DNA of 64,000 nucleotides from positions 192,572,001-192,636,000 of the forward strand of contig OZ024741.1 in assembly GCA_964016885.1 (NCBI GenBank), written 5' to 3'. Shown piece after piece: positions 20,871 through 62,051 of this stretch; within the stretch, counting starts at the first letter, position 1, and the number at the start of each line of letters is the position of its first letter. The notes under the pieces were generated by a model, which worked only from the letters and a program-made list of their open reading frames with translations, had not been told where the DNA came from and made no database searches. Position numbers and translations under genes: made by a program. The stretch is from Eledone cirrhosa (Eukaryota).

Positions 20871-21013
20871 TAAAATAAAGTTAAATAAAAAGTCAAATGA
20901 TTAAAATTTAGCTTCGTTTATTACTGCTATATATATTTCAGTGACAGCCGTCTTTGGCTGTGACCTCTTCAGGCAGTTTGAATTAGTATGACTTTTTATT
21001 TAACTTTATTTTA
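20871..21013 (-). mobile_element. 143-bp HHR-bearing element with 25-bp terminal inverted repeats
   Basis: taaaataaagttaaataaaaagtca (20871-20895) is inverted at 20989-21013; abuts (TA)n. Confidence 0.75.
20923..20977 (-). ncRNA. Minimal type-I hammerhead ribozyme
   Basis: Minus strand: actgc-CTGAAGA-ggtcacagcc aaagac ggctgtcact-GAAA-tatata-TA-gcagt. Confidence 0.82.
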
Positions 21014-21044
21014 TATATATATATATATATATATATATATATAT

Positions 21045-21207
21045 ATATTTATCAAAATAACAGATTAAAGTTTAAGCAAAGAATCGGTGCTTTCACCCTT
21101 AACGGGATCTTCTGAAACTAAAAGACTTTTTTAGTTTCAGAAGATCCCGTTAAGGGTGAAAGCAGGGATTCTTTGCTTAAACTTTAATCTGTTATTTTAA
21201 TAAATAT
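21045..21207. mobile_element. ~160-bp near-perfect palindrome with an HHR-like motif on each strand (21133-21183 +, 21069-21119 -)
   Basis: agttt-CAGAAGA-tccc gttaa gggt-GAAA-gca gggattctt tgc-TT-aaact; the core has A at position 4. Confidence 0.65.
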
Positions 21208-21312
21208 TTGCTCTACGGTTCTTATATATATCTGATATATATTTATCCTTATCGAGCCCTCTTTGGATTTTAGTCTTCAAATTTATTATTATTACTATAT
21301 ATATATATATAA

Positions 21313-22296
21313 TCTCTATATATAAAACTGTGGTTGTCTGTCTGTCTATCGATTTTTGGCACACATCTCCTCTTAGAATCTCTGACGGAATTGCACCGAA
21401 ATTGCTATACTTGTACATTGAGCCCTAGCGAAGACATCGGAAAAAAATATTTCAAATTGACCCACCCTATGTGACGAAATCGAATATAATGTATCGATTT
21501 TTGAGCGTAAGTTATCAGTTATTTCCCTTTGTTCTGTTTACATTGAGCGTCTTACGTAAAAAATTACGCTGGCTTTCTCAGCGTTTAAAATGACATTAAC
21601 ACAATACACGAACAGTTGTCGAGCCAGCAAAATATTGACCTGCAAAATTCATCAGTTCGAACACTAAGCTTCCGTTTTGCTTCATTTCCATTTAAAAGCA
21701 TTTTAAAACAATATTTTTACTTGAAAACAAGTCTATTTAAAGACTACGTAAAACTAGCAAATATTTCGTCGTTAGGCGTGCAGACAGACAGTCGTGCAGA
21801 CAGACAGTCGTGCAGAGAGGTGATATACGCGTGCAGACAGACAGTCGCGCAGAGAGGTGATATAGGCGTGCAGACAGACAGTCGTGCAGAGAGGTGATAT
21901 AGGCGTGCAGACAGACAGTCGTGCAGAGAGGTGATATAGGCGTGCAGACAGACAGTCGTGCAGAGAGGTGATATAGGCGTGCAGACAGACATAACTGATA
22001 ATTTGGTTACGCTAATGTTTTTCTCTGCGTTGCAGTGTTTACATTTTCGATCTTTGTTAATAAATAACCAGTGCAGTTTCTATCCCCAGCATCCTCTTTT
22101 GTTATAACATTCGGGTTATCGTTATGTTTTCTTAACTTCATAAGGCATATTGTTGGTTGAGGGAATATTAATCAAAAACACCACATGCAAGTCTGCACAG
22201 TAGACACTACAGTTTTTAAGCCAAGAAAGAAACTTAACATTGTAACTTTAACACAGCTACTGAGCGACCCCGAGCAACGCCGGGCTTTACTGCTAG
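21313..22296 (+). mobile_element. Non-autonomous Helitron (~980 bp)
   Basis: 5' TC, 3' CTAG, subterminal hairpin cccgagcaacgccggg (22269-22284), inserted at A|T, internal ~37-bp tandem repeat; second copy at 42478-43397. Confidence 0.88.
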
Positions 22297-22646
22297 TTAT
22301 ATATATAATTATAATTATATATATATGAGGTCAACTTTGTCTTTCATCCTTTCGAGGTCAACAAAAAAGTACCAGCCAAATAATGGGGTAGATTCTTCCT
22401 CTATAACTCTTTCTCACTTCCTCGCCCTCTCTCACTTTTTATCATTCTCTGAAAGTAATCTGTTGTACTCAAACCTGGTGAAGGTTGGGCTCCGCCAGGC
22501 TTAATATGGCCAAGAAAAGCCGTATGCCACTACAGCTCCCCCACGACTCCCCCAGAAGTTGCAGGTGCATACCATATGTATGTATGTATGTATGTATGTA
22601 TGTATGTATGTATGTATGTATGTATGTATGTATGTATGTATGTATG

Positions 22647-58710: not shown

Positions 58711-60061
58711 CAGGAGTCAACGTTAATCACTTATACACATATACCTGCCCTTAAAATCATGTGACTTCGTTAACAGTGCATATGATTTTGATCCCTTACA
58801 GTGTCTGGTCTGCTTAACAATATATGGATGAGGTTGAGTCAAGGCGGGATTAACCATTAAACAAAATAAACATATGCTTGAAGCAACAAACGAAGAAGTG
58901 CAACATTTTATTAAAAGTAAATGTACTTTTCATTACAAAAACATGCAAACTTTATATATATGCTTTAGGGGTCACTATAATCTTTTAATTGCTTAGGGTC
59001 TCAAATAAACTTTCTCAGTTAATACACACACATACATATCTGTCATTAGATCTGGAGATGATGAGTTCAATGTAAATGAGTTATAGACACACATCTACCA
59101 CTAACAATATTTTACCTTATTAAAGCCAGATTTTTGGTGGCAAAGTAACAGTTGGTTGTAAACAATAGAACCAGAAATGTGTCAAGAAAAGTGTTCCTCT
59201 TTGGAATTTGAACTAAGAACGTAAAGATCCAGTACAACTAGCACAATACATTTTGGTAGGCGCTCGACAGATTCTCTCAATGTAGGCTACTAATAAGAAT
59301 GACATATTAATTCTATCAATATTGGCGAATAAATAATCTACACCGTATGGCGAGGTTGTATAGATGAGTGTGTATATCGCAGATTGGTGTATATATGTAT
59401 GTATATGTGTATGTATGTATCTATAAGCATGTAAACAGGTACGCGTGTATGCATACACACATATATACATAGCTAATATTTGACATTCGTGATTCTTTTG
59501 CTACATTTCCTTTTATCGTTTGTCCTTTACTTCTCTCTTAAAATGACCTCCCTTCCATTCATGTCTTCTTTTCCGACGAAGGACAAGAACCAAAAACGTT
59601 AAGACACTTTTATCCCTTCCATTAAGCGTTTTACCAATATACGTTTGTTGTAATATGCTGTAAGTACGTATGTACACACGCACATATATATGTATGTATG
59701 TATGTATGTATGTGAGTTGCTTGGTGAGGAGGGTGATATTTGGTCACCCTCCTCACAAATACAAACACACATGCAAACATACATATATACATACATACAC
59801 ACGTACATATATACATACAGGATGGCAGCCCCTCGTTATCGAGTATGGCCATTGCACGAAAAAAAAAAGAAAAAGAAAAAAAATAATAACGACAATAATA
59901 ATAATAACAACAATAATAATAATATATATATATATATATATACACACACACACACGTACACACACACACACACACACACACACACACACACACACACACA
60001 CACACATATATATATATATATATACATATCTATACGCGCACACGCACACACACGATAACAA

Positions 60062-61245
60062 TTAACAGTGCTGCGATCGAATGTGGCTTTTTAGCCCAGC
60101 CAATGATCTCAAATGTCTTGCACAGAGTTGGCAACCAAAACATTCACTGAGAATAGCCGGCTGTGGTTGGAGTTCATGTACTTTTGCATGTCGTTTGAGC
60201 CCTCCTGCTGATTTACATTCTCTACCACATGCTTGGCAAGCATGATGAGTAGCATCTCCAACAGCAGCCTGGTAGTCAACCCCTGATCTCACTTTATGAC
60301 TCCGAAGATGACTTTCGAGTCCATATCGAGCGCATATCCTGCCAAGCAAAGAGTGAAGATGTCACAGAAGTCTCTCACCACCATATTGTAGGAGCTCTGC
60401 ATGTATGCCATCCATACCTGGAGACCTTCCACTGTTCAGCTTCGAGATAGCTACTGCAACCTCCACAAGCGTCAGTGGTTCTGCGAGAGCTACTTTCACA
60501 GATTTTTCTGGAATAAGATTGAGGAAATCTTCATTGACGACAGACCGCTGATTCAAAAGTTCATCAAAGTGCTCTCACCACGTTCGTAGAATTTCTTGTG
60601 AGTCACGAAGAAGTTCTTGCCATCCTTGCTGTGAAGCGGTGTCACCAGCGAAGAACACGGTCCATAAACTTCACGCAAGAGACTGTACAATAGCTTTGTG
60701 TTATTAGAATCTGATGCAACTTGTGTCTCATCAGCCTTCTCACTCCACCACTGATCCTTCATCTGAGAAAGACTCCGCCTAACACGTGTTTTCACATCCT
60801 TGAGTTCCTTATGCAACATGTTCTTCTCCTGTGGTTTTGCTGTCAAGTAGCGTGACAGAGCACGCCTCTTATCAGCCAACAAGTCTTCTATATGTTCATC
60901 ATTCTCATTAAACCAGTCTTGATGTTTTCTCTGCACCAATCATAGAACACGCCTGCCTACATCATAAACCGACTTTTTAAGGGTCGGCCAATCCTCACCA
61001 AGATCTGCAACATTCATCTCTTCTCGCAATGTCCTCTTCACATTTTTATCTCTAAGACGAGCAGCATTCAATCTTTTGGGCAGGGTAACACCAGGAGCCC
61101 GGATTTTACATTTAGTGATTAGTTTCACTTTTGCGCGTACCAGGCGGTGGTCCGTCCAGCACTCAGCTCCACGAAGAGCACGAACACATTGCACATCCCG
61201 TCTGTCACGCATCCTGATAAGGACGTAGTCCAAAAGATGCCATTC
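60062..61245 (-). pseudogene. RTE-clade non-LTR relic: APE end and linker, RT deleted, tandem C2H2 fingers
   Basis: WHLLDYVLIR..DRRDV..VRALRGAECWTDHRLVRAK, RKHQDWFNEND, SGRSPGMDGIHAELLQYGG, then GL.SH.R.H-type fingers. Confidence 0.82.
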
Positions 61246-61282
61246 CTATAACTGATTCAGAGCACTTTCTGGAGTAAATATT

Positions 61283-61519
61283 CAATGATATTAAATAAAT
61301 GGAAACTATATTTATAAAACCATATTTATTCTATTATATATATTTCAAGGGTACAAAAACTTTGGTACGCTTTCAATAAAATTTATAAAACAAAATTTAT
61401 AAAACACACTTTGCATTTTATCTGATGAAAGCGTACCAAAGTTTTTGGTACCCTTGAAATATATATAATAGAATAAATATGGTTTTATAAATATAGTTTC
61501 CATTTATTTAATATCATTG
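61283..61519. mobile_element. ~237-bp fold-back element with HHR (61418-61471, +)
   Basis: Arms ~93 bp; ttat-CTGATGA-aagcgtacc aaagttttt ggtaccctt-GAAA-tatata-TA-atag. Confidence 0.82.
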
Positions 61520-61668
61520 GATATATATATATATATATATATATATATATATATATATATATATGTATATATATTTAAAGGTTAAACAAGGTTCAATGAA
61601 TAAATCAAAGAATGAGTTTTACAATAGATTGGAAGCACACAACAGGTATTGGTTTTCCAGAGTTATTA

Positions 61669-62051
61669 ATATTAATTCAAAATATTAACAAAATAGATAT
61701 TCTTGTGATCAAGTATATTTTATTATACATATTTCAGAGGTACTGAGTTAACTTCAACAGTACGTCCTCATCAGATAAAATAAGATGATGCATAACATAC
61801 CCTGACATAGTAGATGGTTAAGATTCATTCATGGTAGTGAGTAATATATTATTCAGTCATGGTAGTGAGTAATATATACTCACTACCATGACTAAATCTT
61901 AACCATCTACTATGTCAGTGTATGTCATACATCATCTTATTTTATCTGATGAGGACGTACTGTTGAAGTTAATTCAGTACCTCTGAAATATGTATAATAA
62001 AATATACTTGATCATAAGAATATCTATTTTGTTAATATTTTGAATTAATAT
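61669..62051. mobile_element. ~380-bp fold-back with a complete HHR in both arms (61940-62002 +, 61718-61780 -)
   Basis: ttttat-CTGATGA-ggacgtactg ttgaagttaatt cagtacctct-GAAA-tatgta-TA-ataaaa. Confidence 0.85.

What the first reader, a model, noticed from the sequence alone, without database searches (positions are those of the whole stretch)
20923..62002. HHR subclass with an invariant C.C mismatch at stem II position 4 and a UA-rich stem III
Three unrelated sequences share one geometry. Stem II 5'/3' strands are ggtCacagcc/ggctgtCact (20923-20977 -), aagCgtacc/ggtacCctt (61418-61471 +) and ggaCgtactg/cagtacCtct (61940-62002 +). In each, three pairs are followed by a C.C mismatch and then 5-6 pairs, while the neighbouring pairs covary. 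All have U before GAAA and a stem III of UAUAUA or UAUGUA followed by UA. Inference: the mismatch is a selected tertiary or protein contact. Cleavage would leave an RNA ending in about (UA)4, complementary to the (TA)n target.
Basis: partly seen in the sequence, partly recalled or inferred. Interest (0 to 1): 0.72.

Follow-up and report, generated by a model that had tools for sequence, protein, structure and literature searches.

The report
Penelope hammerheads keep one unpaired cytosine

Summary
The three hammerheads and their C·C mismatch are real. They are 5'-truncated stubs of Penelope-like retrotransposons with Hydra-clade protein motifs, and exact patterns count 85,798 such motifs in this genome. 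The three are related, not unrelated: they come from families whose proteins are 45-54% identical. Step 4 of stem II was unpaired in 20 of 20 chosen representatives while pairs 2, 3, 5, 6 and 7 covary, so selection is well supported. Three corrections follow. The invariant is the 5' C: a sister family (most of 24,579 hits) has C·U. Stem III is selected as a palindrome (UGCGCA, UGAUCA, UAUAUA), as in dimer-type hammerheads, not for UA richness. Priming on (TA)n from the cut end is not supported: 101 copies end there against 53,358, and most end 43-60 nt downstream, at an AU-rich stretch before a conserved ACUC/GAGU hairpin. Cleavage and the role of the mismatch are untested. The scan had noted the mismatch before on other pieces of this genome. 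Verdict: a new structural variant of a known ribozyme in a known element; interest 0.45.

The parts
20923..20977 (-). Type I hammerhead, family A; C10.4 = 20962, C11.4 = 20943; predicted cut after 20928 (AUA triplet)
20760..21011 (-). Whole 5'-truncated stub of family A with its 3' tail, between (TA)n runs at 21012-21052 and 20730-20759
   Evidence: 99% match to the 3' end of ORF-bearing L231
20825..20867 (-). Conserved ACUC-stem-loop-2-nt bulge-GAGUG hairpin just behind the main element end; predicted signal for the start of reverse transcription
   Evidence: function inferred
61415..61474 (+). Type I hammerhead, family B; C10.4 = 61432, C11.4 = 61452; predicted cut after 61467; copy ends at (TA)n 53 nt later (61521)
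61327..61383 (-). Inverted partner copy of family B, truncated inside the core (CUGA lost), C·C kept
61938..62004 (+). Type I hammerhead, family C; C10.4 = 61956, C11.4 = 61981; predicted cut after 61996; copy ends at (TA)n 51 nt later (62048)
61716..61782 (-).
61635..61664 (-). Tail hairpin of the family C mirror arm, one letter off the GAGU motif

Best explanation
These are minimal type I hammerhead motifs at the 3' end of Penelope-like retrotransposons with Hydra-clade protein motifs, predicted to cut only as dimers through a palindromic stem III, and the unpaired C at step 4 of their long stem II is a selected feature that likely serves as a local packing or recognition point for the folded ribozyme. 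Shown: identity of the parent element, copy number, conservation of the unpaired C, palindromic stem III, and where copies end. Inferred: when stem II lengthened to about 8-15 pairs, loop II moved away from stem I, and a C·pyrimidine mismatch at about the height where loop II begins in 4-bp stems took over as the deformable spot that lets stems I and II pack, possibly with help from the element's own protein. Inferred: new copies are primed on nicked (TA)n at an AU-rich stretch about 50 nt 3' of the cut site, beside the ACUC/GAGU hairpin, from RNA that is uncut or cut and re-ligated at that hammerhead. Confidence is about 0.9 for the identity, 0.85 for selection on the mismatch, and about 0.5 for packing as its specific role.
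For: Parent: an RT-endonuclease ORF lies 1.1-1.9 kb upstream on the same strand for family A (L231, L062, L079), family C (L064, L061), relatives of family B (L228, L051-L057) and the C·U family (L217, L218, L220, L222). It has RWR, DKT, CxCX5C, CxxC and CxH motifs and no CCHH, as defined for Hydra in Craig 2021. Counts: 53,358 C·C with UAURUA, 7,861 C·C with other stem III, 24,579 C·A/U, 251 C-G, 2,685 non-C at the 5' side; reversed-pattern controls were 0-32. In alignment A1 step 4 is paired in 0 of 20 rows; steps 2, 3, 6 and 7 in 20 of 20 and step 5 in 19 of 20, each with 5-12 double-sided changes. Stem III shows A-U to G-C double changes in 4 of 20 rows, and 5 of 9 variants tested form full 8-bp self-duplexes. 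A G at 11.4 would stabilise stem II by about 6 kcal/mol, yet no such family was seen. Ends and hairpin. Precedents: internal RT start at a stem-loop and a protein-assisted hammerhead in Poseidon (PMC11167929); stem II contacts with stem I (PMC3088659).
Against: No cleavage or expression data. No invariant partner base in stem I: U1.7 occurs in 15 of 20 rows only, which weakens a base-specific RNA contact. The 20 rows were picked by me, mostly from patterns that demand the 5' C; the unbiased checks are, of which only the first 100 hits each were listed. All families come from one genome and may share one origin of the mismatch; deep nodes of the protein tree are poorly supported and three ORF-to-hammerhead links proved wrong or unsure (L060, L230, L233). 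Clade membership rests on motifs, not on a tree with reference sequences.
Confidence: 0.6

Rival explanations
1. The unpaired C is read directly by the element's RT-endonuclease (or a host protein), which switches the ribozyme on or off or loads on the RNA; it has no role in RNA-only folding.
For: No fixed partner in stem I; the Poseidon hammerhead cuts only with its own protein; C stands at step 4, paired with G, in 16 of 26 published Hydra rows (my count), so the base identity may be an old preference.
Against: The base is unchanged while the proteins diverged to 45-54% identity; no binding data.
Confidence: 0.25
2. The mismatch is a brake: it weakens the base of a long stem II so that the RNA mostly stays uncut, or it breaks up long duplex RNA.
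For: Pairing step 4 would add about 6 kcal/mol; copies derive from RNA that is continuous across the cut site.
Against: A generic brake would not need the same step and the same 5' base in all 10 multi-member clusters.
Confidence: 0.12
3. One reading: cleavage leaves a 3' end of about (UA)4 that pairs with the (TA)n target and primes insertion.
For: 101 copies do run into (TA)n at stem III, and 12 of 15 inspected do not resume the element (my reading).
Against: That is 0.19% of 53,358; deletion between two TA tracts or later insertion into stem III explains them equally. Most copies end 43-60 nt downstream. Non-UA stem III families target (TA)n too.
Confidence: 0.05
4. The mismatch is an inherited accident of one ancestor and is neutral.
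For: One genome, probably one lineage; the 3' base did change once (C to U).
Against: The five flanking steps 2, 3, 5, 6 and 7 each changed on both sides, with 3-5 pair types per step, while the 5' C never changed in 20 rows.
Confidence: 0.05

Closest known systems
Hammerheads of Hydra-clade Penelope-like elements (Craig et al. 2021, PMC8557442, section 11 and File S2)
   Same: Type I hammerhead near the 3' end, (TA)n target, U before GAAA in 18 of 26 rows and often U·U at the first step (my count); same protein motifs.
   Different: Published rows have stem II of about 3-8 pairs with step 4 paired (or already loop) in all 26, and stem III of 3-4 pairs beginning AC. Here stem II is longer with a fixed C·Y mismatch, stem III is a 6-nt palindrome, the triplet is fixed as AUA, and the 3' UTR is 1.1-1.9 kb. 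The four stem III signatures searched in that supplement gave one hit, not in a hammerhead context.
Minimal dimer-type hammerheads of metazoan PLEs (Cervera and de la Pena 2014, PMC4209133; Lunse et al. 2017, not held)
   Same: Intact core, long helix II, palindromic helix III/loop 3, thousands of dispersed truncated copies, opposite-strand pairs 100-700 bp apart.
   Different: They describe an extra unpaired base before a conserved G10.1-C11.1 pair, and a bulge in Drosophila virilis helix II; the text read mentions no fixed 1x1 mismatch. Here 11.1 is always U.
Poseidon element of Anolis (Frangieh et al. 2024, PMC11167929)
   Same: Reverse transcription starts inside the RNA, downstream of the hammerhead, at two sites that bound the optional tail; cleavage is not needed for insertion.
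   Different: Its start site is an AC-rich stem-loop without target homology. Here the main end lies in an AU-rich stretch that resembles (TA)n, before a sequence-conserved ACUC/GAGU hairpin.

Membership tests
Type I hammerhead ribozyme | Core CUGANGA ... GAAA ... UH | tested here: met
Type I hammerhead ribozyme | Stems I, II, III supported by covariation | tested here: met
   91% of cells paired, 11 of 15 pairs with double-sided change; slid controls 27-51%
Type I hammerhead ribozyme | Self-cleavage after H17 | not testable with these tools
   needs an assay; no raw RNA reads were offered
Dimer-type PLE hammerhead | Very short, palindromic stem III | tested here: met
   in free dimer folding the stem III duplex formed for 1 of the 3 window motifs
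Dimer-type PLE hammerhead (Cervera 2014 consensus) | Extra base after A9 and conserved G10.1-C11.1 | tested here: not met
   N·U at the first step in 20 of 20 rows; U at 11.1 is common in Hydra rows
Hydra-clade PLE | Single ORF, RT with C-terminal GIY-YIG-type endonuclease | tested here: met
   by motifs; Pfam gave no hit for 3 of 3 such ORFs at E 0.1, in line with the clade's reported divergence
Hydra-clade PLE | RWK motif and DKG changed to DKT | tested here: met
   RWR and DKT in L056, DKT in L055; RWR is a conservative change
Hydra-clade PLE | CxCX5C linker, no CCHH, CxxC and CxH around the conserved E and N | tested here: met
   aligned fragments of five families
Hydra-clade PLE | Insertion in (TA)n, tails, inverted 5'-truncated partners | tested here: met
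Hydra-clade PLE | Generally shorter than 3 kb | tested here: not met
   ORF fragments of about 2.1 kb plus 1.1-1.9 kb 3' UTR; a descriptive trait, not a diagnostic one
Hydra-clade PLE | Placement in an RT tree with reference Hydra sequences | not tested
   reference proteins were not available as stored sequences
Non-LTR retrozyme (Cervera 2020) | Short head-to-tail tandem repeats without ORF | tested here: not met
   dispersed stubs and inverted pairs of an ORF-bearing element

The most novel reading that the evidence does not exclude
This lineage has a two-part RNA control region at its 3' end: a long-stem hammerhead in which an unpaired C replaces loop II as the docking site, read by the element's own protein, and a sequence-conserved ACUC/GAGU hairpin that sets where reverse transcription starts. 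Cutting falls between the element body and the hairpin, so the ribozyme would act as a protein-gated switch that either disarms the template or, after re-ligation, makes a circular one.
Probability: 0.25. Interest if true: 0.7.

Novelty: new variant of a known kind. Interest (0 to 1): 0.45.

Why it matters
What hammerheads do in Penelope-like elements is still open. Natural families that keep one unpaired base and one downstream hairpin across 45-54% protein identity give two exact positions to mutate. The mismatch may also make strict descriptor searches miss a very large ribozyme family (about one motif per 35 kb here).

Tried and rejected
Rfam scan of the window: no hammerhead family among the 150 best of 264 matches listed. 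Sequencing runs: no RNA holder listed; contigs of four runs showed no change at 5% or more at the step-4 bases except one contig in X4, and cannot show RNA ends. Test for 5' ends at the cut site in the C·U family: 54 true breakpoints among 91 hits (37 were small indels, counted by hand) against 17 and 11 at flanking control positions; about twofold after rough normalisation, confounded by TA microhomology and unequal patterns, so inconclusive. 74 copies begin at the cut site after (TA)n; none of 30 inspected ran directly on into its own ORF start. My own shuffle descriptor failed on the real window (0 hits) and was replaced. The protein tree was not used for event counts. Lunse et al. 2017 is not held. 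Figures and supplements of Cervera 2014 were not seen; either source could show this variant.
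Full report
Observation. The three motifs lie where stated and have the stated geometry. The unpaired cytosines are at 20962/20943, 61432/61452 and 61956/61981. The pattern matches 4 times in the window and never in 100 shuffles; the fourth match is the mirror arm of the 61.9 kb insertion. A covariance model built from 20 representatives adds a core-truncated mirror of the 61.4 kb motif.

How common. In the window's genome (3.0 Gb) exact patterns give 53,358 motifs with C·C and UAURUA, 7,861 with C·C and another stem III, mostly UGAUCA among the 100 listed, and 24,579 with C opposite A or U, nearly all of the 100 listed being one group with C·U and UGCGCA. 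The patterns are disjoint and sum to 85,798 motifs; inverted pairs count twice. Reversed-pattern controls gave 0, 6 and 32. C-G at step 4 occurs 251 times and a non-C on the 5' side 2,685 times; the 100 listed in each are point mutants of the same families. The same test for non-UA stem III gave 1,349 hits with 339 in the control; the 100 listed were about half one satellite, the rest point mutants and chance hits. No family with a paired step 4 appeared in these lists.

What carries them. tblastn and blastn on fetched loci link the motifs to the 3' end of Penelope-like elements, 1.1-1.9 kb behind an RT-endonuclease ORF. Family A links through L231, L062 and L079; family C through L064 and L061; relatives of family B through L228 and L051-L057; the C·U family through L217, L218, L220 and L222. 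The links first made for L060, L230 and L233 were dropped as wrong or unsure. The proteins have RWR, DKT, a CxCX5C linker, CxxC and CxH around the endonuclease E and N, and no CCHH. This is the Hydra-clade description of Craig et al. 2021 (section 11). No tree with reference sequences was run. Pairwise identities between the four deep families are 45-54% over 206-556 aligned residues. The taxon was not determined here.

Is the mismatch selected? Clustering 179 unique motifs from the loci gave 10 clusters with two or more members (154 motifs); all 10 have a 5' C at step 4, opposite C in 8 and U in 2. In 20 hand-picked representatives step 4 is a standard pair in 0 of 20. Steps 2, 3, 6 and 7 pair in 20 of 20 and step 5 in 19 of 20, with 5-12 double-sided changes each; the whole structure scores above all 500 shuffles and all slid controls on cells paired and covariation score. 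The sample is biased towards C by my patterns, and rows are related; searches are the unbiased checks. Outside the core the invariant letters are C10.4, U11.1, A16.2 and A17; none lies in stem I. Step 1 is N·U, a trait shared with 18 of 26 published Hydra rows, and U10.1·U11.1 is a known tolerated mismatch. In those 26 rows step 4 is never a mismatch and is C-G in 16 (my count).

Stem III. The variants UAUAUA, UAUGUA, UGAUCA, UGCGCA, UGUGCA and UGUACA are self-complementary when flanked by A15.1 and U16.1; 5 of 9 variants tested give full 8-bp self-duplexes, and A-U changes to G-C on both sides in 4 of 20 rows. This is the palindromic, dimer-forming stem III known for PLE hammerheads (PMC4209133; review PMC6765202). 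UA richness is incidental. Unconstrained dimer folding recovered the stem III duplex for one of the three window motifs only.

Where copies end. Of 153 sampled C·Y motifs, 120 have a (TA)n run within 160 nt: 68 at 40-69 nt after the cut site, 38 at 130-149 nt (tail included), 2 within 20 nt. Genome-wide, 101 motifs run into (TA)n at stem III; 12 of 15 inspected do not resume. The element sequence at the main end is AU-rich, and right behind it six of the seven large clusters show a hairpin closed by ACUC/GAGU with a 2-nt 3' bulge and a covarying inner stem, 49-62 nt after the cut site; the seventh had no tailed copy in the sample. This parallels the internal start of reverse transcription at a stem-loop in Poseidon, where cleavage is dispensable and protein-assisted (PMC11167929). 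So the template is continuous across the cut site: uncut, or cut and re-ligated into a circle as Cervera and de la Pena proposed. Genomic ends cannot tell these apart. A test for 5' ends at the cut site was inconclusive.

Mechanism. Shown: element, counts, conservation, palindrome, ends. Inferred: dimer cleavage; the role of the hairpin; the role of C10.4. Canonical metazoan type I hammerheads use a 4-bp helix II whose loop contacts helix I. Here loop II is about twice as far out or more, and the mismatch sits near the height where that loop would begin. I therefore favour a packing point, possibly protein-assisted. Direct reading by protein is the main rival, since stem I offers no fixed partner.

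Literature seen. PMC4209133 and PMC11167929: parts 1-2 of 4 of the text, no figures. PMC8557442: passages, section 11, Files S1-S2 and term searches in the supplement. PMC6765202, PMC3088659, PMC7229834, PMC7936874: passages. bioRxiv 10.64898/2026.07.22.740005: abstract and passages. Five searches showed no description of this mismatch; 'C-C mismatch' had 0 occurrences in the 11 papers listed. Lunse et al. 2017 could not be read, and its alignments or the unseen supplements of Cervera 2014 may hold the variant. Earlier notes of this scan report the same mismatch on other pieces of this genome; I had reached the reading before that call, and they are not independent support.

Verdict. Interest 0.45.

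Noticed in passing
window 29717-32760: Truncated Penelope-like element with an inverted partner (1,080-nt arms), RT and GIY-YIG Pfam hits, a Neptune-like cysteine linker (label from the description in PMC8557442) and an ordinary short hammerhead-like motif near 32603 with an extra base and G-C at the stem II base.
   Followed up: partly
window 54753-54793 (-): A short-stem hammerhead (3-bp stem II, palindromic CAAUUG stem III, GUU triplet) followed 32 nt later by an ACUC...GAGU hairpin and then (TA)n; the hairpin is thus not limited to the mismatch families. It was not found behind the 14 other non-subclass motifs listed.
   Followed up: partly
L114, L233, L234 (G000 C1): Other long-stem hammerhead families with a 7-nt stem III (CCUUUGG) and mismatches at other steps of stem II.
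   Followed up: no
window 21060-21185: Fold-back insertion next to family A with a hammerhead-like core carrying one change (CAGAAGA ... GAAA).
   Followed up: no
L007-L260, downstream flanks: An AAUAAA hexamer lies 4-15 nt after the cut site in several families, a possible poly(A) signal overlapping stem I.
   Followed up: no
window 6003-8165 and 39863-40932: Fragments of non-LTR retrotransposon RT ORFs.
   Followed up: no
window 34098-37970: 150-bp tandem array (about 21 copies) open in several frames, Thr/Asn-rich on the minus strand.
   Followed up: no
G000 C1 28.2-28.5 Mb: A tandem satellite that matches the hammerhead pattern about 48 times without a paired stem II.
   Followed up: no
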